Shown: positions 44,731 to 64,000 of the stretch, one piece after another | Numbering within the stretch: the stretch's first letter is position 1 | Layout of the letters: each line of letters begins with the position of its first letter | Assembly: GCA_041660165.1 (NCBI GenBank) | Contig: JBAZWW010000001.1 | Coordinates: forward strand, 28,009 to 92,008 | DNA from: Patescibacteria group bacterium | GTDB lineage: Bacteria; Patescibacteriota; Patescibacteriia; UBA9934 | Reading direction: 5' to 3' | DNA: 64,000 bases | The notes under the pieces: model-generated | The model's database searches: none | Told to the model about the DNA's origin: nothing | What the model saw: only the letters and a program-made list of their open reading frames with translations | Made by a program: the position numbers and the translations under genes

Positions 44731-44989
44731 AAGTGGCGGAAGTATAGAGGAGAGTCTGGGAACTGTCAACGAATAGATGTGTACTTTTTTAGCCAAAGTA
44801 AGCCAAGTAATAAGCCTTTAGTCAGGATTATCCGTCCTCATCACCCCGTTTTTTGACAAACCTTAGCGATTTAAGTAGGATCCCGGGTCCGTCCTCTCCC
44901 TCACGGGGATGATTGGACGGTGCGACTTGAGTGCAGTGATGACAGTGACGATAGAGTTTGCCGGCGGATTCCCCGCCACGGAGGCAATA

Positions 44990-47632
44990 ATGGATACCAG
45001 TTCGGTTTTCAAGGCGGTAATGCGCTTCGCAACGATGAGCTTCGTGCTCCTCGCGGCGTGTGGAACGAAGGACGGCCTCCCGTCCGGGGCAACCCGGATC
45101 AACAACGAAGCCGAAATGCGTACGTGTGCGAATGAGCAGCGGTTGTTGGCCGGACAGGACCTCGACCGCGACGGTGTGGGCGGGCCGATCCAGTGGTGCC
45201 TGGACCCGCTGGCAGTCGTTCCGCACCTCAGCACGTCCACCGGCGACTGCAATGATGAAAACCCTGCCGTGTTTCCGGGCGCCGTCGAGATCGCGAACAA
45301 GATCGACGACGACTGCGACGGCTTGGTGGACGACAGCTCGATTACGTCCGTCATGGACTGTAAGTCGAATCTGGACGGCGACAACTACGCCTCCACGCTC
45401 GGCGTCATGCACAGCGAGGATTTGGACTGCCTGGATGCGGGGGAAGCCCCGGCGTCCACGCAGGGTGGCGACTGTGATGACACGCAGGCGGGCATCTACC
45501 CGTTCGCACCTGAGACGTGCAACGGTAAGGATGATGGTTGCGATGATATCATCGACAACGCCCTGGGGTACACCGATTTCCACGCGGACAAGGACGCGGA
45601 CAGCTTCGGTTCTGCCACGGACATCGTGAACTCGTGCGCCCAACCCGCGAACTACGTGAACAACCAGAACGGCGTGGACTGTGACGACGCTCACGCGTCT
45701 GCGCACCCCGGCGGGACGGAAGTCTGCGACGCCCTCGACAACAACTGCAACGGCACCGCGGACGAGGGGTTGGGCTGTAACGCGTTCTACTTCACGGACG
45801 CGGACAAGGACAGCTACGGCAATCCCGTCACGGCTCACACCATCGCGGTAGCTGGCGACGTCACGAACGGTCTGGACTGCGACGACGCGAACGTGCTCCG
45901 CAATCCCGGCAAGGTCGAAGTCCAGGGCAACGGCCTCGACGACGACTGCGACGACGGTACGTCGGACAACCCGGGCAAGTTCTGCCGGGACTTCGACAAC
46001 GACGGCGTGGGCGACGAGCTCTACGGAACGCGCACTACGGCGCAGGCCGGGTACGTGGCGTCGTGCGACGACTGTCGCGACGACTTGAACCCTGTCCATC
46101 CGGGCGCGATCGAGGTCATCGGCGACGAGGTCGACAACGACTGCAACCCCGTCACGAAGGATACGGTCACGACCGGCACGTACTACGCGGACAAGGACGG
46201 GGACACCTACGGCGACAAGTCCGTGGTGGTCACCGTGGCCACGCCCGGGTACGTGGTGGACAGCACCGACTGCAACGACAACGACAAGACGGCTCACCCC
46301 GGCGCCACGGAAGTGGTGGGCGACGGCGTGGACCAGGACTGCAGCGGGTTCGAGGTCTGCTTCCTCGACAACGATAGCGATAAGTTCCGTGACACCTCGG
46401 GACAGCTCTACAACTCCAACGACCTCGACTGCGTGGATACGCGCGAGGCCGGAATCGGGGTCCCGACCACGGACTGCGATGACAACGACCCCACCATCAA
46501 CCCGAACGTCACGGAGGTGATCGGCGACCAGAAGGACCAGAACTGTGATGGGAAAGAGGTCTGCTACCTCGACATCGACCAGGACGGCTTCCGGTTCATC
46601 GGAAGCCCGAACGATACGTACGACAGCAATACCGATGTGGACTGTCTCGACAAGTTCGAGGCCTCGGCCGCGACTCCGGCAACGGACTGCGCCGAAATCG
46701 ACAAAAACATTCACCCCGGCGCGATGGAGATCCCGGCCGACGGGATCGACCAGAACTGCGACGGCAAGGAGGTCTGCTGGCGGGACGTGGACGACGACGA
46801 TTACCGGAAGGACACCACTTCCACGATCGACTCGTCGGACATGGACTGCGTGGATACGCAGGAAGCGGTGGCCACCACCGTGGACTGCAACGACAAGAAC
46901 GATACGGTTCACCCCAACGCGACGGAGACGTGTAACAGCGTCGACGACAACTGCGACGGCAAGGTGGACGAGAACGCCACGGGCACCACGTGGTACGCAG
47001 ATACGGACAAGGACGGTTACGGGAACGGTTCCGTGACCGCCGTCGGATGCACGGCCCCCACGGGCTTCGTGTCGGACAAGACCGACTGCGACGACGCGCA
47101 CGCGTTGAGTTACCCTGGCAAGGTCGAGGTCTGCGATGCCCTGGACAACAACTGCGACGGGCTCGTGGACAACGGTCTCACGTGCTCGAACAATCCCCCG
47201 CCTCCCCAGGGGATCTGCCCCACGGGCCAGCGGAGGTACACCGGCACGTTCCAGGTCGGGAGCGCGATCGAGGGCCCGAACATCCTCGACGTGTACGGTA
47301 GCGTGACTGGCGGAGGCGTGAACGAGTTCCCCGCTGGCAGCTGGACCAACGTGGCGCGGTTCCACGTGACCAGGCGCGGAGGCACGGCCACGTTCACGGA
47401 CGAGTCCTGTGTGGCGGATGGCGCCACGGTCCTGTTCTCGGTCTATCTCAAGGACCGCAACGGCCAGGACCACTGGAGCGCGGAAGGTGGTCGCAACGGC
47501 TGTAGCGTGACCGGGGATACTATGGCCCTGGCGAACAGTGCCACGCTCGCGCACGCGTGGATTCCCACCACGCCCGTGTGGAACGGCTACACGGACATTC
47601 GCGAGGGCTGTAACATCAAGTGGCCCTTCTAG
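44990..47632 (+). CDS. GC-rich lipoprotein with about 10 Cys/Asp-rich repeats (MopE-like putative metal-binding motif) and DxDxDG calcium-type motifs
   Basis: RBS GGAGG lies 7 nt upstream of the ATG. Signal peptide and lipobox LLAAC. Repeats of the form DCDD...HPGAxExCDxxDNDCDG and DKDGDTYGD. The opposite strand carries a 908-aa stop-free shadow ORF. Confidence 0.8.
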   Translation: MDTSSVFKAVMRFATMSFVLLAACGTKDGLPSGATRINNEAEMRTCANEQRLLAGQDLDRDGVGGPIQWCLDPLAVVPHLSTSTGDCNDENPAVFPGAVEIANKIDDDCDGLVDDSSITSVMDCKSNLDGDNYASTLGVMHSEDLDCLDAGEAPASTQGGDCDDTQAGIYPFAPETCNGKDDGCDDIIDNALGYTDFHADKDADSFGSATDIVNSCAQPANYVNNQNGVDCDDAHASAHPGGTEVCDALDNNCNGTADEGLGCNAFYFTDADKDSYGNPVTAHTIAVAGDVTNGLDCDDANVLRNPGKVEVQGNGLDDDCDDGTSDNPGKFCRDFDNDGVGDELYGTRTTAQAGYVASCDDCRDDLNPVHPGAIEVIGDEVDNDCNPVTKDTVTTGTYYADKDGDTYGDKSVVVTVATPGYVVDSTDCNDNDKTAHPGATEVVGDGVDQDCSGFEVCFLDNDSDKFRDTSGQLYNSNDLDCVDTREAGIGVPTTDCDDNDPTINPNVTEVIGDQKDQNCDGKEVCYLDIDQDGFRFIGSPNDTYDSNTDVDCLDKFEASAATPATDCAEIDKNIHPGAMEIPADGIDQNCDGKEVCWRDVDDDDYRKDTTSTIDSSDMDCVDTQEAVATTVDCNDKNDTVHPNATETCNSVDDNCDGKVDENATGTTWYADTDKDGYGNGSVTAVGCTAPTGFVSDKTDCDDAHALSYPGKVEVCDALDNNCDGLVDNGLTCSNNPPPPQGICPTGQRRYTGTFQVGSAIEGPNILDVYGSVTGGGVNEFPAGSWTNVARFHVTRRGGTATFTDESCVADGATVLFSVYLKDRNGQDHWSAEGGRNGCSVTGDTMALANSATLAHAWIPTTPVWNGYTDIREGCNIKWPF

Positions 47633-50959: not shown

Positions 50960-51139
50960 ATCCCTGATCGTAGCACGGGCATTCCCGCCTTGCCATTCAA
51001 AAGCCTATTTGATAAAGTACCCCCGGTTTGAAGGATGTTCCGTATTGTTCGGGGGTAGCTTCCGCCTTCGCTCGATTACGAGCTACGGCGGATAAACAGT
51101 GGCACATGGCCACTTCGCTACTTCAGGACAAAGATATGT

Positions 51140-51214
51140 TCGGGGGTAGCTCAGTGGCAGAGCAAGGGACTGTTAATCCCTGGGTCGTGGGTTCGAGCCC
51201 CACCCCCCGAGCCA
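51140..51214 (+). tRNA. tRNA-Asn (anticodon GUU) with encoded CCA
   Basis: Manual fold: acceptor TCGGGGG/CCCCCGA, D-arm GCTC-AGTGGCA-GAGC, anticodon arm AGGGA-CTGTTAA-TCCCT, and T-arm GTGGG-TTCGAGC-CCCAC. Confidence 0.85.
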
Positions 51215-52842
51215 GAATGCACATCTTGCGTTGCAAGGTGTGTTTTCTTTTTGTCGTGCCTTGAAAAGAGGGCAGAATAGCCGTCTTTTGCGATAAACGA
51301 GAATTCATTGTTAGAAAAACGGAGTTCGGTAAACACCTGGGCGATGATCTGATGCTTTTCTATGTCTAGCGCGTATTTGTAGTACAAACCCGCCCTTTTA
51401 ACGAGTTCGGAAAAGGTTAGGATGTATTTGAGCATTTCGTGTTCAGATTGGTGAATCTCCCCCAAAGAAGCCTGAACCTCACGGTACTCGTTTTCTAGGC
51501 GCGTTACATCTGTCGCGTAATCCTCGGGACTGATAGCTTTAGTGCGGAGGAGCGTGATCTTCTCGTTTTTCAAATAGTCGAGATCTGCATAGATCCGATC
51601 GACATGTCTTTGGAGTTCATGGCGTTTCTTGTCGCGCTCGTCAGCGACCTTATTGAGCCCTGTGCGCGTTTTGGCCTCGATCTCGGATAACTCTTCGTCT
51701 GAGAATGCAATCTTCCCCAGTAGGCCCCCGATATACTCATGTACCTTCTCATTGCTCAGGTTTGGATTCGGATTCGTGCAACCCTCTTTGCACTTTGCGC
51801 GAAAATAGAGCTGACCCTTCTGTTCGTAGGGGGAGTAGGATCGACCGCACGAACACTTGATGACCCCACGGTAGGTTACGAATAATTTATCGGGGTAATG
51901 GACGCCAGTGGCACGTTGTGCTAGCGCGGCCTGAACCTTATAAAAGAGACCAGCTTCAACGAGGACGGGGTGGATGCCATTAATCACGCTTCCTCGATTT
52001 TTCAACTTACCAATATAGAACGGATTATTCAGTATATTTTCAATGGATTTAGTATTTACGGGGCGCGATATTTTTGGAGCAAAGTTATCGTTCCCAGAGA
52101 GAATTTCTTCTTTAGTACGTTTTGGTCGAATCGGTTTGGTTGTGAGTCCTTGTTTATTTGCCCATTTTGCGAGTTGGCTAAAGCTCCACTCACCAGTCGC
52201 GTATAGTTCAAATATCCGTTTTACAGTTGGAGCGCGATCGGGATCGAGTACCTTGTTATCCGACCCATTGTCTAAATAACCGATAGGGGAAACGTACGAA
52301 CAATATCCTTTCGCTCTAATCTTTTCTAAGCCCGCACGTGTTTTCTGGCTGATATCTCGCGAAAAGTGTTCAGAAAATGTTCCATCAATATCGCGGTGTA
52401 AGGCACCTGCCGCTGTTTGTTCATACTGTGCCTGTACAAACCGAATATCAACACGCGAATCATCAATCATTCGTTTGATGACCATTGCATCCTGTTCGTT
52501 TCGGCTGAGTCTATCCCAACATAGGACGATCACCCCCTTGAATTTGGATTGCTTGAGATCCTGCATCAATCTCAGGAATTTTGGCCTGCCTATATCGAAG
52601 ACGATTTGTCCTTTCGTATTAAAATCTATTCCTGCTGTTTTATATGCCGAATGTTTTTCTCGGATGATCCCGTCCGTGTAGTAACCGTCGATTGATCCTT
52701 TTACGACAGGCAATCCGAGCGATTTAGCGTGACTCAAATTGGCTCCCTCCTGATAGTCGAGTGAGTTTTTTTGGTTATTGGCTTCGTCTGTACTTTTGCG
52801 AGTGTAGACGAGGTATTCCTGACTGTGATCGGATTCTTTCAT
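51151..52842 (-). mobile_element. Large serine recombinase (integrase). Its 3' end overlaps the tRNA-Asn 3' half on the opposite strand.
   Basis: Resolvase catalytic domain YTRKSTDE with the Ser nucleophile, followed by recombinase and zinc-ribbon/coiled-coil domains. 563 aa. Confidence 0.85.
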
Positions 52843-54760: not shown

Positions 54761-55285
54761 ATGGACAAGGATGCAGCCAAAGAAACGATCAAGAAACCGA
54801 TATATAGGCGTTGGTGGTTTTGGTTGTTGGCATTTTTAGCATTCGTTATGATCGTGGGACCATTTTTGCCAGAATCGACAACGACCCCATCTCCCGTTGT
54901 GGTTTCTTCTGGGACAGGTTCTGACACGATAAACGTTGACAAGCCAACACCCGCCCCTGAGCCAGAGAAAGTAGTAGCGACCACGAGTGCTGTGAAATTT
55001 TATCAGGATTATACGACTAACAATATAGCCGCTGAGCAAAAATATAACGGTCATTTGGTGAAACTCACTGGCGTAATTTCAAGTATCGGCAGGGATATTC
55101 TTGGGAAAGCGTACATTGTGTTGAAGGGTGATCAGTATGGTTTTAAGGGAATTCAGTGCATGTTGGACGATTCATCGATGGCGAAGGTGGCTGAGGTCAG
55201 CATTGGCGACTCGGTCACTCTGACTGGCAGGGTTAAGGATAATGTTCTTACAAATATTCTTATTGACGGTTGTTTGATCGACTGA
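54761..55285 (+). CDS. Membrane-anchored OB-fold (tRNA_anti-like) protein
   Basis: TM helix, then KYNGHLVKLTGVISSIGRDILGKAYIVLKGDQYGFKGIQCML. Confidence 0.5.
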   Translation: MDKDAAKETIKKPIYRRWWFWLLAFLAFVMIVGPFLPESTTTPSPVVVSSGTGSDTINVDKPTPAPEPEKVVATTSAVKFYQDYTTNNIAAEQKYNGHLVKLTGVISSIGRDILGKAYIVLKGDQYGFKGIQCMLDDSSMAKVAEVSIGDSVTLTGRVKDNVLTNILIDGCLID

Positions 55286-58200
55286 ACCTAACTGATGCCC
55301 CAAACTCATTCCACCACCACTCCATAATCGAACGTGGGGCAATACAGGGGCACACGGCTCTTGTCGGTGGCGTGAACAGGCGGTCGAGTATCAGACTTAA
55401 CCAACAGAAGGCCATATCTCGGATGTGGCCTTTTTGTAATTTCCGAAATGTGAGAGTATCAGATGAATCTATGTTCTTAGAGCCACGCATCAAACGTTGC
55501 GAATCACTAAAGGATCTTCTCGACTCCCCCGAGGATCCAGGTTTTTTTGACGAGGATAGCGATGGTATCGACACGGTTCTTCGGTCACAGAGAGCTTTTT
55601 TGATTAGTGAGCCTGGATATGGAAAATCGAGTGTATTGCTGCAGATTATTGAGAAGAGCCAAAAGGCAAATGAATCCTGCATTTATATCGATCTCAAAAC
55701 AATTACAAACAAGTCATTGTGCGCTTTAATTAAAGATAACGAGGAAGTTTACACATCGCAGGGAGCGATTGACGACTTTTCTCGTAAACCCATTTTCCAA
55801 ACAAGCAAATTTAGAGCCAAAAATTCAAGAGAGGTAATTTTTTGTTTAGATGCCCTTGATGAGGTTAGACAGGAGTATTTTTCTGAAACGGTAGATGAAA
55901 TTAAGCGCTTTATCGCAAAGTACGATAAGGCAACCATCATCCTGACTTGTCGTAAGAATTATCTGGCAAAATGGCAACATCTTTTTGCGGATCAATCTCT
56001 GGAGTTTTTTAGTCTGCTCTGTTTTAACTCAGATCAAATTCGTTCTTATTTGGTGGCCGAGGGAATCGCTGAGGAAACGGTTGAAATTGTTTTAGAGAAG
56101 ATGAACTTCAGAAATCGGCTGCCGATTCTCCGTGTACCTCGTTATCTTGGTATGTTAGCAAGATTCGTAAAAAAGGAAGGAGCTGAGGCGCTTATTGGTA
56201 TTACTCGAGGTAGGCTATTTGATTTTTTTATTGATGAGAATTTGAGGAACGAACAGGAAAAGGTAGATTTGAATAAAAACGCGATTATTAAGAAGGTTCT
56301 TGAGAAATTGGCCTTAGTAATGGAAATCTATCAAACAAGCCAAATCAGTAAAAATGAGTTGATGGAATTTTTTGATGATGTTCAGTCCAATCTCAGTATT
56401 AGTTTTTTGAACCAGGTTCCGATCGAGATTCTTTATGAAAGATCCTTACTTAAGGAAAACCCTGAAACCGTTGAATTTGTTAACACCGAGTTTCAGGAAT
56501 ATTTGGCCGCAAAGGAGATTTGCAGGCTCGGAAAGACCGACCAAGTAGTTTTCGATTTGATGGTAATAAAAGAGTTACACGAGATACACCCATCATGGAT
56601 TAATACGCTGTCTTTCTTACTGGAAGAGGATATTTCGTTGTTACCAGACATAATTAAATATATTGCCAAAAAATCCAGCCTCGAGAACTACCACGCGTTA
56701 TTGCCCATCACTGGGGTAGATAAGCTTACGATCCTTGCCAAAGGGAAGATCTTCCAAAGTATACTAACCAATTATTGCGATAACGGTCATTGGATCGATC
56801 ACAATGTTGCGAGAAACCTTAGTTGGTACTTCGATAGTACCCAGCACAAATTTCTCGACTCATTATTCTCTTCAAAGAATAATGATGAAACTTTTGGTGA
56901 GGTTATAAAAGCGAACGTTTTATTATTGATAGGATACATCTCCGAGAGGGGCTTGTTGAGCGTGAAGCAGTCGGGAGTTTGGCAACAACGAATTATCGAC
57001 ACAATCGGTTCACCCTATCAGAACGAGGTGCTGTTAAGATTCTCAATCACTGCTCTGGGAGCCTTTAAGAATCCGACGCTTTTTTCAACCAGGTTGGCTG
57101 ATATTATTTTTGCCACCAAGGAGGACACGATTATCTCTGGCCTTATATACGCAATTGAAGATTCCGATTCGCTAACTAGTGATGCCATCAATTGTATTCT
57201 GAGAGGGATAGAGATGGGTAATATTTCTGCCAGATTACTTTTACCAAGAATTACTGATAAACCCGCAATTAACAATGTGGTAGATTCGTTGATTACAAAC
57301 GAAAAATTATTGGTGGAATTTTTGGATCACGAAAGTATTCACGTGAGAGACACAGAAAAGATCCTTAAGAACCTCGAAAAAGTCACCGATGAACATCTAC
57401 TTGTAAAGCTTAAGAAATTATTTAACAGATTTTTTTCTGACAGCACGTATTTTGATGCCCAACATTCTAAATTTGTTCTTGGTCTGGCAGTTTTGATAGA
57501 CAAGAAATCACCAGGCTTTATTTTTGAACTAATAGCAACGTACAAGGACACCGATTTTTTGCACGCCCTACCTAGCATATTTGCAGCCTTGCTGAAGGCC
57601 GATGACGTGAAGGAGTTTTCCGAGCAGATGTCTAAGCATAGATGGATCGCGTTTAATACAGTCTACATAGCGGCTTCTGCCCAAACTGATGTCGCAAAGG
57701 GTATAGAGGCTGAGGGACGAAAATGCATGAATGATGAGTTCACGTCATCAGATAAATCGCAGGTGAAGACGACGCATATCGATGCGAAGAGGGAGCGAGA
57801 CGTGTATCAATTATTTAAATACAAACTTGAACCAGAACAGAAGAAATATTCCCTTGATTTATTCCAGTACTATCGAGGGCAAGAGAATATTATTGAAAAA
57901 TACATTTCCACTGAAGAAAAAGAACGGCTAATATATCTTGTTATTGATGCATTGCAGGTTTTTGATCCAGGGACACAAAAGTTGACTATTACAAATAGAG
58001 CCGAGGGTTCGTCACAGTACACGACAAACCAGTTCATCCATGTATTCGGCGATGCTCTCAGTGTGGCTGCAGATCTGAACGTAAATGTTTCTCACCTGAG
58101 ACAACACATAGTCAACTATATACCGTTTTCATACAGTGAACACCTGAAGGCGATATTTCACTTGGTGAAGCGGCCGACTAAGGATGAGATCGTGCTATTA

Positions 58201-59472
58201 CTAAAGATTTATAAAAATAGAGCCGATGATTTGCGAGAATTCATGCCCAGTAGCCTTATTGAATTCGTTCAGGTTCATCAGTTATCGGAAGCTGTAATGA
58301 TTCTAAAGTCATTCGTAAATTCTGAGAAAGTTTCGAGCTTCGATCGTTGTGCGGCATTCAATACAATCGTTGGATTAGATGGAGAGACCAAGCTATATGC
58401 TCGGTTAATATTCAATAAGTATAGGAACAGTCGTAAACCCGCGGAGATATTGTTGCGAGATTCTGCAAATGCTCATCTGATAGAAAAGTATTCAGTTTCC
58501 GATGCAGTTAACTGGAGGATTGAAAAGCTTATTGAGAAAGCTGAGCCGTTTAAAAGGGTAAAAGGAGTCCATGCAGTTGGAAAATTGGAGGGGGAGTTGA
58601 TGGATAAGAATTTCGCAAAACCATTATATGCGCTAAAAGGTTCGGCATATCGGAAGTTATTTCTTGACCTAATAGAGAGGGCTTTGGAAGTACATGGGAA
58701 GAGTGAGGAATATCATGATTACGCTTCGTATCTTTGGTCTATCAGCATTGAATATTTTAGGAATCTAAAGCAAGCTAAAAGCTACGAATCATTACATGAT
58801 ATCGAGGAGCTTATTGAACGAAATAAGGAGCAGTCAGGTATCAATTGGTTTCTATATACCTATCAGAATCTCAAGAGAGAGTATGCAATATTTATAGGGA
58901 AACCAAACAATATCGCGGATTGCATAAAGCAATATAATTACTTTAAGACAAGTTCATATCTTGTGGTGAGTACATCCGACGATCTATTTAGGATCATCAT
59001 GGGGGCGTGCAATGATAAGATCAGATCATGGGTAGAGAGCGAGGGCGCATATCATTTGATTAGAACTTATCCAAAGGCCGAGGATCTAATTCAGAAAACA
59101 ATAAAGACACAGCTAACTAATTGCTTACTTGAAGCTGGATTACGCAAGGAAGAGATCCAGGTTCAACGAGAATCGCAGTTGCTCGATGATAAGCGCACCG
59201 ATTTTCTCGTCTACTACGGTTTCATAGGCCCCATTCTGATTGAGGTAAAACTCTCGGACAATCCTGAGATAACAAACGGTGGCAAACGTTTGCAGTATAG
59301 AAAAAAGCTTCTCCAATATCTCGATGGTACGGCCTCACATCGAGGTATCTATTTGGTGTTTCTCCTCAAATCAGAGGATCTTCGTTTTGACACAATACTG
59401 AAGAATCAGTACAAGAATGACCGTATTGAGGTGGTGTCATTAATCTGCAAACCCAAAAGTATCATCGGGTAG
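55270..59472 (+). CDS. NACHT-family STAND NTPase (1400 aa) with a long helical C-terminal region and a C-terminal PD-(D/E)xK-like motif
   Basis: Walker A SEPGYGKSS, Walker B IFCLDALDEV, sensor TIILTCRKN and the winged-helix FQEYLAAKEI hallmark. The C-terminus has TDFLVYY...ILIEVK. The true start may be an internal ATG near 55423. Confidence 0.8.
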   Translation: MFDRLNLTDAPNSFHHHSIIERGAIQGHTALVGGVNRRSSIRLNQQKAISRMWPFCNFRNVRVSDESMFLEPRIKRCESLKDLLDSPEDPGFFDEDSDGIDTVLRSQRAFLISEPGYGKSSVLLQIIEKSQKANESCIYIDLKTITNKSLCALIKDNEEVYTSQGAIDDFSRKPIFQTSKFRAKNSREVIFCLDALDEVRQEYFSETVDEIKRFIAKYDKATIILTCRKNYLAKWQHLFADQSLEFFSLLCFNSDQIRSYLVAEGIAEETVEIVLEKMNFRNRLPILRVPRYLGMLARFVKKEGAEALIGITRGRLFDFFIDENLRNEQEKVDLNKNAIIKKVLEKLALVMEIYQTSQISKNELMEFFDDVQSNLSISFLNQVPIEILYERSLLKENPETVEFVNTEFQEYLAAKEICRLGKTDQVVFDLMVIKELHEIHPSWINTLSFLLEEDISLLPDIIKYIAKKSSLENYHALLPITGVDKLTILAKGKIFQSILTNYCDNGHWIDHNVARNLSWYFDSTQHKFLDSLFSSKNNDETFGEVIKANVLLLIGYISERGLLSVKQSGVWQQRIIDTIGSPYQNEVLLRFSITALGAFKNPTLFSTRLADIIFATKEDTIISGLIYAIEDSDSLTSDAINCILRGIEMGNISARLLLPRITDKPAINNVVDSLITNEKLLVEFLDHESIHVRDTEKILKNLEKVTDEHLLVKLKKLFNRFFSDSTYFDAQHSKFVLGLAVLIDKKSPGFIFELIATYKDTDFLHALPSIFAALLKADDVKEFSEQMSKHRWIAFNTVYIAASAQTDVAKGIEAEGRKCMNDEFTSSDKSQVKTTHIDAKRERDVYQLFKYKLEPEQKKYSLDLFQYYRGQENIIEKYISTEEKERLIYLVIDALQVFDPGTQKLTITNRAEGSSQYTTNQFIHVFGDALSVAADLNVNVSHLRQHIVNYIPFSYSEHLKAIFHLVKRPTKDEIVLLLKIYKNRADDLREFMPSSLIEFVQVHQLSEAVMILKSFVNSEKVSSFDRCAAFNTIVGLDGETKLYARLIFNKYRNSRKPAEILLRDSANAHLIEKYSVSDAVNWRIEKLIEKAEPFKRVKGVHAVGKLEGELMDKNFAKPLYALKGSAYRKLFLDLIERALEVHGKSEEYHDYASYLWSISIEYFRNLKQAKSYESLHDIEELIERNKEQSGINWFLYTYQNLKREYAIFIGKPNNIADCIKQYNYFKTSSYLVVSTSDDLFRIIMGACNDKIRSWVESEGAYHLIRTYPKAEDLIQKTIKTQLTNCLLEAGLRKEEIQVQRESQLLDDKRTDFLVYYGFIGPILIEVKLSDNPEITNGGKRLQYRKKLLQYLDGTASHRGIYLVFLLKSEDLRFDTILKNQYKNDRIEVVSLICKPKSIIG

Positions 59473-59490
59473 CCTCATTGTTTTCGTCAT

Positions 59491-60303
59491 ATGGATCCGA
59501 AAAGCTTCACAGAGCAATTGTTGTTTTCGACAGTTCTTATCAGGATGCTTGATGTAAAGATGCAACCATTTGGACACGGAACTGGCTTCTTATATTTATT
59601 GGACCTTGCACCAGGTGGGGGCCAGCAAAAGATCTTGCTAGTATCAAATAAACACGTGTTAAACAAATGCAGGGCGATCAGTATTGATTTCCACGCGCAA
59701 CAGAATAATCTACCGATTTTAGATAATGTAATAACAGTTCAGCTGCGCTATGATGATGTCTGGCACCATGATACGGCTGATGTTGCGTGCATCGACATAA
59801 CTGAAAGCGTTAAGGAGTTTCAAGAGCGAATTTATATAAGGTGTGTTGGTGAAGACTCATTACTAGATAGTTCCGATGAACTTCTCGACGTTCACCAGGA
59901 CATTTTCTTTGTAGGATATCCGTTACGTATTTACGATAAGAAGAATTATTTGCCCATCGTCAGGTCAGGAATCACTGCATCACATCCGAATATTCCTTTT
60001 AATGGCAAACCTGAATTTATTATTGATGCATCTGTGTACGAGGGCTCAAGCGGTAGCCCTGTATTTCTTGATTTGTTAAAACCAAACCTAGCTTTAGGGA
60101 AGCTAGCAATGGGTGCAGCGCCTAAATGCATCGGGATTATTTCGACTAACTTTAACGTTCTTTCGGAGTTGAAGGAGGTTTCGCTCCCTAGTGAAAAACT
60201 TGCCTCTTCCCAGGTAGTTGGTCTGGCAACGGTCTGTAATAGCCAGACCATCAGGGAGGTCGTTGGGCAGGTATCGGCTAGTTACAAATTGCGAAATCCC
60301 TGA
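59491..60303 (+). CDS. Cytoplasmic trypsin-like serine peptidase (Trypsin_2/S1-like)
   Basis: Catalytic triad His (SNKHVLN), Asp (DVACIDI) and Ser (GSSGSPVF). No signal peptide. It lies 18 bp after the NACHT gene. Confidence 0.75.
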   Translation: MDPKSFTEQLLFSTVLIRMLDVKMQPFGHGTGFLYLLDLAPGGGQQKILLVSNKHVLNKCRAISIDFHAQQNNLPILDNVITVQLRYDDVWHHDTADVACIDITESVKEFQERIYIRCVGEDSLLDSSDELLDVHQDIFFVGYPLRIYDKKNYLPIVRSGITASHPNIPFNGKPEFIIDASVYEGSSGSPVFLDLLKPNLALGKLAMGAAPKCIGIISTNFNVLSELKEVSLPSEKLASSQVVGLATVCNSQTIREVVGQVSASYKLRNP

Positions 60304-60699
60304 CTTCGATCGCCTTGAGTCTTTCTGCACTAAACTTAACTGCTTGATAAATTGTTGATAGTTCAGAAAACAGGTACTCTGGGGAGCCATAAAAATATGA
60401 CATCTTGGTGTCATATTTTTAATTTACGGGCAGGAGAGCAAGCAAATACTTTGGCGTACGTTAGGGCGAGAACGGCGGTGTGGTGTTTCGTTACCAGATA
60501 GAACCGCGAGATGGTGGATTGTCGTGGGGAGCGGTGTTGAGCCGAGAGCCGAAGCCGAGTCCCACCACCTGAGTCATTAGCGGGTGTGTGGGATGTCCAT
60601 GTGCCTGATCAACAACAAGCCAAGCAATCCGCTGGCTTTTCATATTTTCATTTATCATGCTATACCATTTATGCTCAACGAAATGTTCGAAAAACAAAC

Positions 60700-61728
60700 A
60701 TGACCTACGACGAGCTCGTAAAGTTCATTCAGGGCCATTTCACCGATGGGTTGGTTTTGGTATTGGGCTCAGGGCTATCCGCGGCCGAGGGAATTCCTGA
60801 TATGCCTGCCCTTGCTACATACCTTTCAGAACAAGCGATTGAGCTGACCGGTGCTGATAAGGCGGCCTGGTTAAACATAAAAACAGTGCTTGATACGGGA
60901 GAAGGACTTGAAGCGGCTCTGCTAAGACATGCTCCGTCTTCGACTTTGGAAGCGTGGATTGTTCGAAAGACCTGCGAGCTGTTGATGCCGATAGAACGCA
61001 AGATCATGAGCGCTATGTTCAGGGGCGACACGACACTCCGTTTGAGCAAGTTTCTTTCTAAGATTCTCAAGCCGACGGAAGGATTACCCATTCTAACGAC
61101 AAATTATGATCGGTTGATCGAGATTGCCTGTGAGATGGAGGGATTCCATGTTGATACAGCAGCGGTTGGAAATTACGCAGGTACATTTGATCATGAGCGC
61201 AGCCTCATGGGATCAAGCAAAAGAATAGCAACTCGTGGAAAAACACCTTTCCTTGAGCATTACCCGCGAGCCGTCGTTCTTAAGCCGCACGGTAGTTTTG
61301 ATTGGTACAGATCAGGGGATTCTGCGAGGCGGTGTGGTTTTGATCTGGTGGGTGTGGAAAGACTGATAATCACCCCCGGAACCAACAAGTATAAGGCCGG
61401 GTACGAAGCACCATTCGATAAACACAGAGATTTGGCAAATTCCTATATTGATAAAGCGGCGAAACTATTTGTAGTAGGCTATGGTTTTAATGACGATCAT
61501 CTGCAGACTCACCTGATTAAAAAAATTAATGATGGCCTACCGACATTGATCTTAAGCCGCTCTGAAAACCCTAAAATTCAAAAGCTGGCAAAGGAGGCGC
61601 TGCGTTGTGTAGCACTCTCTAAATTAAACACGGGTACAGGTGTTTCTGTTACAACGAAGGATACCCACTTCGAACACCCTGGTGACGATCTATGGGATTT
61701 AGGCGTTTTAACTAAAGAACTTCTATAG
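60700..61728 (+). CDS. SIR2-like (SIR2_2) NAD-utilising defence protein
   Basis: LVLVLGSGLSAAEGIP, ILTTNYDRLIE and VLKPHGSFDW. I chose the ATG at 60700; the ORF-track start is 60586. Confidence 0.85.
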   Translation: MTYDELVKFIQGHFTDGLVLVLGSGLSAAEGIPDMPALATYLSEQAIELTGADKAAWLNIKTVLDTGEGLEAALLRHAPSSTLEAWIVRKTCELLMPIERKIMSAMFRGDTTLRLSKFLSKILKPTEGLPILTTNYDRLIEIACEMEGFHVDTAAVGNYAGTFDHERSLMGSSKRIATRGKTPFLEHYPRAVVLKPHGSFDWYRSGDSARRCGFDLVGVERLIITPGTNKYKAGYEAPFDKHRDLANSYIDKAAKLFVVGYGFNDDHLQTHLIKKINDGLPTLILSRSENPKIQKLAKEALRCVALSKLNTGTGVSVTTKDTHFEHPGDDLWDLGVLTKELL

Positions 61729-61729
61729 T

Positions 61730-63499
61730 ATGACTGACATTACAAGTTTGAGTTTTGAAGATGTAAGTCAGCTCGGCAAGGTGGTGGGGGTTGATACCAG
61801 TCGAGTGCTTATTGCGGTGGATAATGCGACACTCTTGCCTCGTGCAGCTGTCGGTAGCCTTGTCGCAATTCAAGGCAGCACGGCTCAAGAGTTTCTAATC
61901 GGCATGACAGAACGGGTGACTCGCCAGCTTCGTGAACAGACGGCTCAGCCTGATTCTATGACCCCCACCGTGCTTTCAGTCGAAGTAGTTCCGGATGACG
62001 CTATTCGTGTTGTATTGCTCGGGACCTATCGTACGGTTGATGGAGCAGTTCGTAATCGGTTTAAGCGTGGTGCCGATTCATTTCCACAGATTGATCGCCA
62101 TTGTTTTTTGATCGAGGGGCAGAATCTTCAGCTGTTCATGGGTTTGCTGGGAAAGGACCTGGGGCCGGAGCAACGACTTGAGCTCGGCCACTTCGTGTTA
62201 GATAGTTCCGCTACGGCTATTGCGAACGGAGACAAGTTTTTTCAGCGTCATGCGGCTATCCTCGGTAGTACCGGTTCCGGTAAGAGCTATGCAGTATCAC
62301 TAATTTTAGAGCGTGCTAATGCACGCAAGTATCCGAACATTATCGTTTTTGACATGCATGGAGAGTATGCATCATTGGCTAATCCGCCGGTGCAGACAAA
62401 CGGGACTCCGAGGACTGCGATCGCTACCGCTTTTAAAATAGCTGGTCCAGGAGATTTGGATTTACCAAAACCCAACACGATCTTTCTTCCATATTGGCTC
62501 TTAAATCGCGACGAGATGCTGTCCATGATTCTTGATCGCAGTGATCAGAATGCCCCCAACCAGGCTTCTCGATTTACTCAGCATGTGAGGGATCTTAAGG
62601 GAGCGGCTGTTGCGAGTAAGCCTAGTGTACAAGCTACGTTTACCGTTGATTCCCCAATCCCATATAATCTTCCAGATCTACTGCAGAAATTACAGCACGA
62701 TGATACCGCTAAGGGGACCGGCGTTAGCGGAAAAGAGGTAAAAGGTGACTGGGAAGGTAAATTGACTCGTTTTATTTCTCGACTGGAAACGAAGTCAGCT
62801 GATCGGAGGTATGGGTTTATGTTCAAGCCACCGAGCGCGGCTCTTGAGTATGACTGGCTTGCGACGCAAATTTTACAACTCCTGACTCCAGGCAAAGATA
62901 AGCACGGCATAAAAATTGTCGATTTTTCGGAAGTACCACCAGACGTGCTTCCGGTAGTCACCGCTATCTTCGCAAGACTTCTTTATGATGTCCAGTTTTG
63001 GATGGATCCTGACAAGCGTACGCCCTTTGTCTTTGTTTGTGACGAAGCGCATCTTTATTTACCAGTTAAAGATGATGCAGACGCCGTCGAGAAGCAGGCG
63101 CTCTATTGTTTCGAACGCATTTCTAAGGAGGGTCGCAAGTACGGAGTTTCGCTGCTCGTAGTTAGTCAGCGCCCATCCGATGTCAGCCGAACTATTCTCA
63201 GTCAGTGCAACAATTTTCTTGTTTTAAGACTTACAAATGATCAAGATCAAAATGTGGTTCGTCGACTGGTTCCCGACTCCATGGCAGGCATCCTTGATGG
63301 ATTACCACTACTCGATACCGGAGAAGCATTATTGCTGGGCGATGCGATTTTGTTGCCTGCTAGATTGAAGCTCAAGCTGCCCATGATCGAACCGTTGAGC
63401 CAAACACGGAATTTCTGGCAGGAATGGGAAACTAAAGTACCTAACTCAGATGCCATCTCTCTTGCTGTGGAGGCTCTTCGTCGCCAATCTCGTACATAA
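61730..63499 (+). CDS. HerA-like (FtsK/HerA superfamily) ATPase partner of SIR2
   Basis: Walker A ILGSTGSGKSY, Walker B FVFVCDEAH and VVSQRPSDV. It directly abuts the SIR2 gene. Confidence 0.85.
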   Translation: MTDITSLSFEDVSQLGKVVGVDTSRVLIAVDNATLLPRAAVGSLVAIQGSTAQEFLIGMTERVTRQLREQTAQPDSMTPTVLSVEVVPDDAIRVVLLGTYRTVDGAVRNRFKRGADSFPQIDRHCFLIEGQNLQLFMGLLGKDLGPEQRLELGHFVLDSSATAIANGDKFFQRHAAILGSTGSGKSYAVSLILERANARKYPNIIVFDMHGEYASLANPPVQTNGTPRTAIATAFKIAGPGDLDLPKPNTIFLPYWLLNRDEMLSMILDRSDQNAPNQASRFTQHVRDLKGAAVASKPSVQATFTVDSPIPYNLPDLLQKLQHDDTAKGTGVSGKEVKGDWEGKLTRFISRLETKSADRRYGFMFKPPSAALEYDWLATQILQLLTPGKDKHGIKIVDFSEVPPDVLPVVTAIFARLLYDVQFWMDPDKRTPFVFVCDEAHLYLPVKDDADAVEKQALYCFERISKEGRKYGVSLLVVSQRPSDVSRTILSQCNNFLVLRLTNDQDQNVVRRLVPDSMAGILDGLPLLDTGEALLLGDAILLPARLKLKLPMIEPLSQTRNFWQEWETKVPNSDAISLAVEALRRQSRT

Positions 63500-64000
63500 G
63501 GATGGTGCGGTAGATGCATTTTGATTTTAAGATCACGCGCCTCTCATTGAGAGCCAACTCGGACTTTAGCTTGTCGAGTAGATCGCGCGTTTTTTTTCGT
63601 GTGTCCTTCTTGAAAATATATTTTGTACACGTGTATACGTCTATGCCGGGCATCATTTCGGCAATTTTTCCGATAACGGCATAGCCACCTAGGTCGGAGA
63701 ACAGGGTTGCTAGTTTTTCCCGTTAGAACCATACTGTGGATATTATCAATTACCATTTGAATCTATGTTCCTTATCCCTGGGCAGTTATTAACGATGATA
63801 ACGTTTCCTGGCGTTTTGACCTATGAGTTATTGTATCTTGCGTTTTCCAGATCCGCCCATTTACAGGGAACTCCCAATACAAAAAAATTGCCGACTAATT
63901 TTCAACAAGCAGCCACGGTAATTGCGGGTCCATTTGTTATTAGTTCGATGCTCTGTTTTATTTTTGCGTTTATCGCCGGTGTCGGTAATTTTCAGGACGT

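What the first reader, a model, noticed from the sequence alone, without database searches (positions are those of the whole stretch)
60586..63499. SIR2–HerA anti-phage operon
A SIR2_2-type protein carries the GSGxS, TTNYD and catalytic His (KPHGS) motifs. It is immediately followed (stop and start adjacent) by a HerA/FtsK-like ATPase with Walker A GSTGSGKS, Walker B DEAH and a QRPS motif. This pair is the established SIR2–HerA NAD+-depleting abortive-infection system. A ~400-bp AT-rich promoter region with TATA-like hexamers separates it from the upstream protease gene, so it is its own transcription unit. Finding it in what looks like a reduced-genome bacterium is noteworthy.
Basis: partly seen in the sequence, partly recalled or inferred. 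Interest (0 to 1): 0.55.

Follow-up and report, generated by a model that had tools for sequence, protein, structure and literature searches.

The report
SIR2–HerA phage-defence operon in CPR bacterium
This is an intact two-gene SIR2–HerA anti-phage system of an already catalogued but untested subtype, carried on a small mobile island in a tiny-genome Patescibacteria bacterium; it is a correct but fairly ordinary identification.

Summary
The two genes are real and intact. SIR2 is 342 aa and most likely starts at ATG 60700, not GTG 60586. HerA (589 aa, 61730-63499) starts 1 nt after the SIR2 stop. PADLOC's SIR2 and HerA models match over their full length (E 4.8e-110 and 5.8e-221). N135 and H197 of SIR2 align with the catalytic N226 and H287 of S. 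aureus Sir2. They are invariant in the family, as are HerA's Walker A, Walker B and QRP motifs. HerA directly follows SIR2 in 78 of 80 related genomic loci; in the other two the contig ends. No third gene recurs and no T4SS genes are nearby. The host is a Patescibacteria (Uhrbacteria-like) bacterium, so the "reduced genome" remark holds. The operon lies in a low-GC island beside tRNA-Asn. The island also carries a serine integrase, a Sie-like gene and a NACHT plus protease pair. This subtype differs from the characterised systems. Its SIR2 is short and only weakly similar to the solved ones. Its HerA is closer to the HerA of DUF4297–HerA systems. The "AT-rich promoter" detail is not supported. 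Verdict: new member of a known kind, with modest interest.

The parts
60700..61728 (+). SIR2_2-family gene, the predicted NADase effector (342 aa). The maximal ORF starts at GTG 60586. Catalytic residues N135, D137 and H197; NAD-binding loop GSGLS 23-27.
   Evidence: PADLOC SIR2 PDLC04082 E 4.8e-110, covering profile positions 1-343 of 345. Pfam SIR2_2 E 1.7e-09. Family alignment invariants. The profile hits only the SIR2 subunits of SIR2-HerA structures in the PDB.
61730..63499 (+). HerA-type hexameric ATPase gene (589 aa). Walker A K185, Walker B D438/E439, Q480-R481-P482.
   Evidence: PADLOC HerA PDLC04105 E 5.8e-221, profile positions 3-574 of 576. Pfam DUF87/HerA central domain E 7.9e-29. 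PDB hits to HerA of defence systems. Motifs conserved in 66-67 of 67 homologues.
61726..61732 (+). Gene junction: SIR2 stop TAG, one nucleotide, then HerA ATG. This suggests co-transcription and probably translational coupling.
   Evidence: Sequence read directly. The same tight junction occurs in nearly all 78 related loci.
60390..60421 (+). Perfect 14-bp palindromic hairpin flanked by A and T runs, 87 nt after the protease stop. Terminator-like; it probably ends the NACHT-protease unit.
   Evidence: RNA fold dG -15.6 kcal/mol, z -4.12, 0 of 200 shuffles as stable. The function is inferred.
60422..60699 (+). Region upstream of SIR2 that presumably holds the operon's promoter and 5' UTR. It contains an unexplained GC-rich core at 60454-60603.
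   Evidence: Composition. No sigma-70 consensus site. No Rfam match. Not conserved in 80 related loci. The promoter role is inferred only.
63584..63663 (+). Two terminator-like hairpins with T runs, 85-165 nt after the HerA stop. They mark the likely end of the operon.
   Evidence: Terminator pattern scan. The count is not above shuffle expectation, so this is weak evidence.
51140..52842 (.). Left edge of the carrier island: tRNA-Asn (51140-51214, + strand) and a large serine integrase (51151-52842, - strand).
   Evidence: ARAGORN and Rfam tRNA. Pfam Resolvase + Recombinase and phrog_95 integrase E 1e-58. GC falls from 52.5% to 43.6% from this point on.

Best explanation
A functional two-gene SIR2-HerA abortive-infection module. 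Shown here: a SIR2_2 protein with an intact Asn/Asp/His active site, and a HerA ATPase with intact Walker A, Walker B and QRP motifs. The two are encoded as a tightly joined pair that is conserved across phyla. Here the pair sits in a horizontally acquired, integrase-bearing defence island beside tRNA-Asn in a Patescibacteria (Uhrbacteria-like) genome. Inferred from characterised relatives: HerA forms a hexamer whose N-terminal domain docks a ring of SIR2 subunits. A phage cue then activates the complex, SIR2 hydrolyses NAD+, and the infected cell stops growing before the phage completes its cycle. The cue could be a phage protein or DNA ends; this is unknown here. HerA's ATPase activity, and possibly DNA-directed activities, would gate that step. 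The subtype is distinct from the studied ones: it has a short 342-aa SIR2 and a HerA whose ATPase core is closest to the HerA that partners the DUF4297 nuclease. This suggests effector swapping on a common HerA chassis.
For: 1. Full-length PADLOC matches to SIR2 and HerA.
2. The SIR2 family profile hits only the SIR2 subunits of the three structurally studied SIR2-HerA systems: 8yhx 5.3e-14, 8j4u 4.5e-07, 8w9l 4.7e-03.
3. N135 and H197 align with SaSir2 N226 and H287, which are required for NADase activity.
4. GSGLS, NYD and KPHGS are invariant in the family, including a 43%-identical E. coli member.
5. HerA Walker A is conserved in 67/67 sequences, and CDEAH and QRP in 66/66.
6. HerA directly follows SIR2 in 78 of 80 loci from many phyla; the other two loci run off the contig end.
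7. No third conserved gene.
8. Defence-island context: PDC-S45 protease 5.4e-51, a NACHT protein, a Sie-like protein and a serine integrase.
9. Low GC relative to the host.
10. Host identity from TypA relatives and from the NCBI names of the identical proteins.
11. HerA PDB ranking: 9c1m 235 bits and 8xau 219 bits (both DUF4297 partners), above 8wiv 175, 8j4u 118 and 8yho 92 bits (all SIR2 partners).
Against: 1. No member of this exact subtype was shown to be experimentally tested in anything I could read.
2. Scores against NCBIfam's curated anti-phage SIR2 and HerA equivalogs are far below their cut-offs: 29.5 vs 500 bits and 288 vs 850 bits. Mechanistic details may therefore not transfer.
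3. Characterised subtypes already differ from each other in stoichiometry, ATPase activity, and helicase versus nickase function.
4. No promoter could be identified.
5. The AlphaFold model of the SIR2 was too poor to use (pLDDT 55.6), so the fold-level comparison is missing.
6. Expression and activity in a CPR cell are untested.
Confidence: 0.85

Rival explanations
1. The HerA-like gene is a conjugation/T4SS or FtsK-type DNA-translocation ATPase belonging to the mobile element, and the SIR2 gene is an unrelated neighbour.
For: There are weak Pfam and NCBIfam hits around the Walker A only: TrwB_AAD_bind 6.6e-06, FtsK_SpoIIIE 3.8e-04, VirB4 models at 25-32 bits. The locus is on an integrase-bearing island.
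Against: Those hits cover only about 40 residues and fall far below their cut-offs. The HerA defence models match the full length at 733 bits. No T4SS, relaxase or coupling-protein genes occur within 10 kb on either side. SIR2 and HerA are adjacent in 78 of 78 testable loci.
Confidence: 0.02
2. SIR2-HerA works together with the upstream NACHT NTPase and trypsin-like protease as one four-gene system. For example, NACHT could sense the phage and the protease could activate SIR2-HerA.
For: All four genes are co-oriented and contiguous in one low-GC island. No promoter was detected in the spacer.
Against: No NACHT or protease homologue occurs in any of the 80 related SIR2-HerA loci, and no third gene family recurs. 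A strong hairpin sits between the protease and SIR2 genes. The protease matches a separate PADLOC candidate system, PDC-S45.
Confidence: 0.05
3. The module is a SIR2-HerA relative, but its main killing activity is not NAD+ depletion. It could be DNA nicking or degradation driven by HerA, as in DUF4297-HerA or the E. coli type III nickase, with SIR2 serving mainly as a regulator or scaffold.
For: The HerA core is closest to the HerA of nuclease-partnered systems. In E. coli type III Sir2-HerA, a HerA nickase is required for defence. HerA is more conserved (61-84% identity) than SIR2 (41-68%) across the clade.
Against: The SIR2 catalytic Asn, Asp and His and the NAD-binding loop are invariant across 17 aligned members down to 43% identity. 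That argues for selection on NADase catalysis. No nuclease domain was detected in either protein.
Confidence: 0.08

Closest known systems
Staphylococcus aureus Sir2-HerA (PDB 8YHX/8YHO; PMC11514289)
   Same: It is the best PDB match for the SIR2 (profile E 5.3e-14). The catalytic N226 and H287 align with N135 and H197. It has the same two-gene SIR2 + HerA architecture.
   Different: SaSir2 is 428 aa versus 342 aa here, and only the C-terminal catalytic half (about 150 residues) aligns. SaHerA is a weak match to this HerA (91.9 bits). SaHerA is reported to lack ATPase activity, whereas all ATPase motifs are intact here.
E. coli Sir2-HerA 'Nezha' (PDB 8J4U, 8SU9 and others)
   Same: It has the same gene pair and the same domain families. 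The SIR2 profile hits 8j4u_A (4.5e-07) and HerA hits 8j4u_M (2.4e-33).
   Different: The sequences are strongly diverged. NCBIfam equivalogs built around this type score far below cut-off: 29.5/500 and 158/800 bits. Nezha SIR2 is 415 aa and has a C-terminal oligomerisation helix. No equivalent could be tested here.
Paenibacillus sp. 453MF SIR2-HerA (PDB 8WIV/8W9L; PMC11472057)
   Same: Among SIR2-partnered HerAs with structures, this is the closest to the window's HerA (1.7e-50). Its SIR2 is detectable with the family profile (4.7e-03).
   Different: Its HerA is 696 aa versus 589 aa here. The SIR2 similarity is marginal.
HerA-DUF4297 systems (PDB 9C1M, 8XAU; bioRxiv 10.1101/2024.10.24.620088; PMC11291478)
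   Same: Their HerA is the closest solved relative of this HerA (1.3e-68 and 7.5e-64), and the lengths are similar (585 and 571 aa). NCBIfam HerA_antiphage_2 and PADLOC PDLC02188 outscore the models that rank with the Nezha type.
   Different: The partner here is a SIR2 NADase, not a Cap4-like DUF4297 nuclease. The similarity is concentrated in the ATPase core: residues 326-568 score 174 bits, residues 110-319 score 56 bits, and residues 1-109 do not match. The unmatched N-terminal part is where the effector-binding HAS domain lies in those systems.
E. coli EC416 SIR2 family protein / ATP-binding protein pair (WP_074387873.1 / WP_064173247.1, NZ_AP027404.1)
   Same: It belongs to the same subtype: SIR2 345 aa and 43% identical, HerA 582 aa and 66% identical, with overlapping genes.
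   Different: It is uncharacterised and rare: it was found in 2 of 5426 complete E. coli genomes by DNA search. It sits in a different genomic context, next to a DEAD/DEAH helicase.

Membership tests
SIR2-HerA anti-phage system | A SIR2_2 (PF13289) family protein with the catalytic Asn and His of NADase SIR2 domains | tested here: met
   Pfam SIR2_2 at 38.4 bits, above the 24.5 cut-off. PADLOC SIR2 E 4.8e-110. N135, D137 and H197 are invariant and align with SaSir2 N226 and H287.
SIR2-HerA anti-phage system | A HerA-clade ATPase with intact Walker A and Walker B motifs | tested here: met
   Pfam DUF87 (HerA central domain) at 101.8 bits and HerA_C at 28.7 bits. PADLOC HerA E 5.8e-221. K185 and D438/E439 are conserved in 66-67 of 67 homologues.
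SIR2-HerA anti-phage system | The two genes are adjacent, co-oriented and conserved as a pair across genomes | tested here: met
   There is a 1-nt gap in the window. HerA lies immediately downstream of SIR2 in 78 of 80 loci, and the other 2 are truncated by the contig end. There is no third conserved gene.
SIR2-HerA anti-phage system | Location among other defence or mobile-element genes (a defence island) | tested here: met
   Neighbours are a PDC-S45 protease, a NACHT NTPase, a Sie-like protein and a serine integrase beside tRNA-Asn, and GC is lower than in the host.
SIR2-HerA anti-phage system | SIR2 and HerA assemble into a supramolecular complex (about 12 SIR2 : 6 HerA) | not testable with these tools
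   No complex prediction was available, and the monomer model of SIR2 was poor (pLDDT 55.6).
SIR2-HerA anti-phage system | Phage-triggered NAD+ depletion and protection by abortive infection | not testable with these tools
   This needs phage challenge and NAD+ measurement. No experimental report for this subtype was found in the papers read.
NCBIfam 'SIR2_antiphage' / 'HerA_antiphage' equivalogs (Nezha-type) | Score above the curated equivalog cut-off | tested here: not met
   SIR2 scores 29.5 bits against a 500 cut-off. HerA scores 157.7 against 800 (NF042943) and 288.1 against 850 (NF042944). The locus is therefore in the same system class but a different subtype.
E. coli type III Sir2-HerA (PMC13434337) | Sir2 with catalytic N238; HerA with K188 and nickase D218 | tested here: not met
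   The catalytic Asn here is N135 in a 342-aa protein, so this is a much shorter SIR2. Types I and II could not be compared because their sequences are not in the held text.
DUF4297-HerA system | The partner of HerA is a DUF4297 (Cap4-like nuclease) protein | tested here: not met
   The partner matches only SIR2 models in PADLOC and Pfam. Only the HerA resembles this system.
T4SS / conjugative coupling or VirB4 ATPase | Full-length match to VirB4, VirD4 or TraG models, with T4SS genes nearby | tested here: not met
   There are only about 40-residue Walker A hits, far below cut-offs. No T4SS genes lie within 10 kb.
Other SIR2 defence proteins (Thoeris ThsA, DSR1/2, SIR2-pAgo) | SIR2 fused or paired with SLOG, a long C-terminal sensor, or APAZ/Argonaute | tested here: not met
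   The protein is a single-domain 342-aa SIR2 paired with HerA. The PADLOC Aga_SIR2 hits are weak (6.7e-08 and 1.2e-06) compared with 4.8e-110 for the top SIR2 model. The family profile hits no ThsA or DSR structure at E <= 0.01.

The most novel reading that the evidence does not exclude
The short-SIR2 / DUF4297-type-HerA lineage is a mechanistically distinct and uncharacterised SIR2-HerA subtype. It comprises at least 134 clusters at 50% identity and 221 species genomes. It would have arisen by swapping the effector on a HerA chassis, and would have its own stoichiometry and trigger logic. Its presence on an integrase-borne island in a Patescibacteria episymbiont would show that NAD+-depleting suicide defence is deployed even in ultra-small cells that depend on a host cell for metabolites.
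Probability: 0.25. Interest if true: 0.45.

Novelty: new member of a known kind. Interest (0 to 1): 0.28.

Why it matters
It adds a concrete, intact example of an abortive-infection NADase system to the sparse defence inventory of CPR/Patescibacteria, and shows how it got there: on a small serine-integrase island beside a tRNA gene that carries several defence modules. It also points to a widespread SIR2-HerA subtype that I could not find tested. Its HerA is nearer to nuclease-partnered HerAs, which is useful for studying how HerA chassis exchange effectors. Public records label the HerA gene only as 'ATP-binding protein', so the system is under-annotated. None of this changes current understanding of SIR2-HerA systems.

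Tried and rejected
1. AlphaFold2 model of the SIR2 from a 20-sequence alignment. Mean pLDDT was 55.6 with the catalytic core below 50. The alignment was too shallow (63-70% identity), so no fold search was run.
2. Empty-site comparison. The closest relative with a long contig (TypA 91% identical, GCA_018062825.1, L084) is not syntenic past TypA and has no tRNA-Asn within 10 kb. The island insertion therefore could not be shown directly.
3. Right-hand att site. No copy of the tRNA-Asn 3' end lies within 10 kb downstream of HerA. The right boundary is only estimated from the GC rise about 1-2 kb past the window end.
4. Assignment to E. coli Sir2-HerA types I and II. The paper's sequences and supplements are not held. 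Only type III could be excluded, from its residue numbering.
5. Sigma-70 promoter search in the spacer found no site. CPR promoters may differ, so this is uninformative rather than negative.
6. Rfam scan of 50-64 kb found only the tRNA. BLAST of the spacer against 80 related loci found nothing.
7. A near-identity search of the E. coli genomes found no match.
8. Considered and rejected: a T4SS ATPase, a sirtuin deacetylase, and a four-gene NACHT-protease-SIR2-HerA system (see the rival explanations and membership tests).
Full report
**Observation**

The ORF list shows a 380-aa ORF at 60586-61728 (GTG start) and a 589-aa ORF at 61730-63499, both on the + strand.
- SIR2 (342-aa numbering): GSGLS 23-27, TTNYD 133-137, KPHGS 195-199.
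- HerA: GSTGSGKS 179-186, DEAH 438-441, QRPS 480-483.

The SIR2 stop (TAG, 61726-61728) and the HerA ATG (61730) are separated by a single nucleotide.

The start coordinate needs correcting:
- The PADLOC SIR2 model aligns from residue 39 of the long ORF.
- Most homologues are about 342 aa and begin at the aligned Met.
- Gene callers disagree, giving 342, 375 or 380 aa.
- ATG 60700 is the best-supported start.

**What the two proteins are**

PADLOC's SIR2 (PDLC04082, E 4.8e-110) and HerA (PDLC04105, E 5.8e-221) models match over essentially their full lengths. Pfam gives SIR2_2 for the first protein. For the second it gives DUF87 (HerA central domain) plus HerA_C, both above their gathering scores.

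A profile of 17 family members, including a 43%-identical E. coli protein, hits only three things in the PDB. All three are SIR2 subunits of structurally studied SIR2-HerA systems:
- S. aureus 8yhx, E 5.3e-14
- E. coli Nezha 8j4u, E 4.5e-07
- Paenibacillus 8w9l, E 4.7e-03

In the alignment to 8yhx_G, N135 and H197 of the window protein fall on N226 and H287. These form the catalytic dyad of SaSir2, and mutating H287 abolishes its NADase activity (PMC11514289). GSGLS, N135-Y-D137, K195-P-H197-G-S and GYGFNDDH are invariant in the family alignment.

For HerA I aligned 67 homologues translated from related loci:
- Walker A, including K185: 67 of 67.
- CDEAH: 66 of 66 full-length sequences.
- Q480-R481-P482: 66 of 66.

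Both genes are therefore intact and under the constraint expected of active enzymes.

**Is the pair a system?**

A scan of one genome per species (185,579 species) with the SIR2 alignment found 221 genomes encoding a relative. The best 80 were fetched.
- In 78 of them a HerA homologue (61-84% identical) lies immediately downstream on the same strand. In most, only the stop codon separates the genes.
- In the other two the contig ends 2 bases after SIR2.
- Clustering all flanking ORFs shows no third recurrent gene. After SIR2, HerA and their antisense shadow ORFs, the next family occurs in at most 10 loci.
- The upstream NACHT and protease genes of the window never appear next to SIR2-HerA elsewhere.

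No T4SS or relaxase genes lie within 10 kb on either side in the extended metagenomic contig. The VirB4, TrwB and FtsK hits cover only the Walker A region and are far below cut-off.

**Transcription unit**

The spacer between the protease stop (60303) and ATG 60700 is 396 bp and 45.7% GC. Its ends are AT-rich (32-40% GC) and its core at 60454-60603 is GC-rich (54-64%), so it is not simply AT-rich. The sigma-70 consensus scan finds nothing in it. Rfam finds nothing. The spacer is not conserved in related loci.

It does contain a perfect 14-bp hairpin flanked by A and T runs at 60390-60421 (dG -15.6 kcal/mol, z -4.1). This is consistent with a terminator for the upstream NACHT-protease unit. Together with the independence of the two modules across genomes, a separate SIR2-HerA transcription unit is likely. 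It is inferred, not shown.

**Host and carrier**

NCBI holds the identical SIR2, HerA and protease proteins in two MAG records, both labelled 'Patescibacteria group bacterium'. The records call them 'SIR2 family protein', 'ATP-binding protein' and 'serine protease'.

As an independent check, the window's TypA has named relatives at 70-91% identity. Nearly all are Patescibacteria or Candidatus Uhrbacteria (a few only 'bacterium'), and their longest contigs reach at most about 1.1 Mb. The 'reduced-genome bacterium' remark is therefore correct, even though the window is 51% GC and carries ordinary housekeeping genes such as PcrA, NrdA, PBP2, GlmS, DnaG, RpoD and TypA.

The operon lies in a segment whose GC falls from 52.5% to 43.6%. 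That segment starts at tRNA-Asn (51140-51214) and contains:
- a large serine integrase (phrog_95, E 1e-58);
- a Sie-like OB-fold protein (phrog_8545, E 1.9e-16);
- a 1340-1400-aa NACHT NTPase;
- a trypsin-like protease matching PADLOC candidate PDC-S45 (E 5.4e-51).

None of the 80 best SIR2 loci is from Patescibacteria. The nearest (about 68% identity) come from Burkholderiales, Syntrophales, Bifidobacteriaceae, Pirellulaceae, Acidobacteriota and Nitrospirota. Horizontal acquisition on a small integrative defence island is the most likely history.

I could not define the right boundary or show an empty site.

**Comparison with known systems**

The locus belongs to the SIR2-HerA class but not to any studied subtype.
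- NCBIfam's curated anti-phage equivalogs score far below cut-off: SIR2 29.5 vs 500 bits, HerA 288 vs 850 and 158 vs 800 bits.
- The SIR2 is short (342 aa versus 415-428 aa), and only its catalytic half aligns with solved SIR2s.
- The HerA's best solved relatives are HerAs that partner the DUF4297 nuclease: 9c1m at 235 bits and 8xau at 219 bits (identities confirmed).
- These rank above the SIR2-partnered HerAs of Paenibacillus (175 bits), E. coli Nezha (118) and S. aureus (92).
- The similarity is concentrated in the ATPase core (residues 326-568), and residues 1-109 have no match. In HerA-DUF4297 the N-terminal HAS domain is the effector-binding part.

This pattern fits effector exchange on a conserved HerA motor. 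That is an inference.

A 2026 paper shows that E. coli alone has eight Sir2-HerA clusters. Three additional types were validated, they share only 13-22% identity with each other, and they differ mechanistically: type III uses a HerA nickase and an ATP checkpoint (PMC13434337). The window's subtype is not type III, going by residue numbering. Whether it equals type I, type II or an unvalidated cluster could not be determined.

An orthologous pair exists in E. coli EC416, with SIR2 43% and HerA 66% identical, but it is rare and uncharacterised. The short-SIR2 family comprises 134 clusters at 50% identity with E <= 1e-30.

**Mechanism**

Shown here: intact catalytic and ATPase motifs, an obligate gene pairing, and a defence-island context.

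Inferred from characterised relatives:
1. A HerA hexamer docks a ring of SIR2 subunits through its N-terminal domain.
2. A phage cue activates the complex.
3. SIR2 hydrolyses NAD+, and the infected cell arrests before the phage completes its cycle.

Unknown for this subtype: the trigger, the stoichiometry, and whether HerA has helicase or nickase activity.

**Verdict**

The finding is a new member of a known kind that PADLOC-type tools would call automatically. Defence systems in CPR bacteria have already been surveyed at scale (PMC12259885). The host is therefore only mildly noteworthy, and interest is modest (0.28).

Noticed in passing
window 55270-60303 (+): A NACHT NTPase of 1340-1400 aa, depending on the start chosen, with weak NCBIfam EruA/HyoA hits. 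It is followed 18 nt later by a trypsin-like serine protease matching PADLOC candidate system PDC-S45 (E 5.4e-51). This is a probable second, independent defence pair in the same island.
   Followed up: partly
window 54761-55285 (+): A 174-aa tRNA_anti-like OB-fold protein matching PHROG 8545, 'superinfection exclusion Sie-like' (E 1.9e-16). It sits between the integrase region and the NACHT gene.
   Followed up: partly
window 51046-52842: The last ~20 codons of the large serine integrase (51151-52842, - strand) are antisense to tRNA-Asn (51140-51214). A 15-nt copy of the tRNA 5' end (TGTTCGGGGGTAGCT) is repeated at 51046-51060 and 51137-51151. This may be a footprint of integration at this tRNA. 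No tRNA 3'-end copy was found within 10 kb beyond HerA.
   Followed up: partly
window 44909-47632 (+): A 907-aa protein with nine MopE-type putative metal-binding repeats (Pfam E 4.7e-84), in a 63% GC stretch of a 52% GC genome. An equally long antisense ORF (44828-47554) has no family match and is probably a shadow ORF.
   Followed up: partly
window 60454-60603: An unexplained GC-rich core (54-64% GC) inside the otherwise AT-rich spacer upstream of SIR2. It has no Rfam match and no similarity in 80 related loci.
   Followed up: partly
window 60586 / 60601 / 60700: Public annotation pipelines disagree on the SIR2 start: 380 aa at JGI, 375 aa at NCBI, and 342 aa at ENA and Logan. The family alignment supports the shortest form.
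   Followed up: yes
L066 6972-8308; L058 6585-7027: In two related loci the SIR2-HerA junction is disturbed. L066 (Sedimentisphaerales MAG) has about 1.3 kb inserted between the genes. In L058 (Nitrospira MAG) the SIR2 match is broken. These may be insertions or decay.
   Followed up: no
window 63441-63656 (-) and L001 12036-12521 (+): Gene callers place a 71-aa ORF antisense to the HerA 3' end, and a 161-aa hydrophobic protein just downstream that is cut by the window end. Neither has a family match.
   Followed up: no
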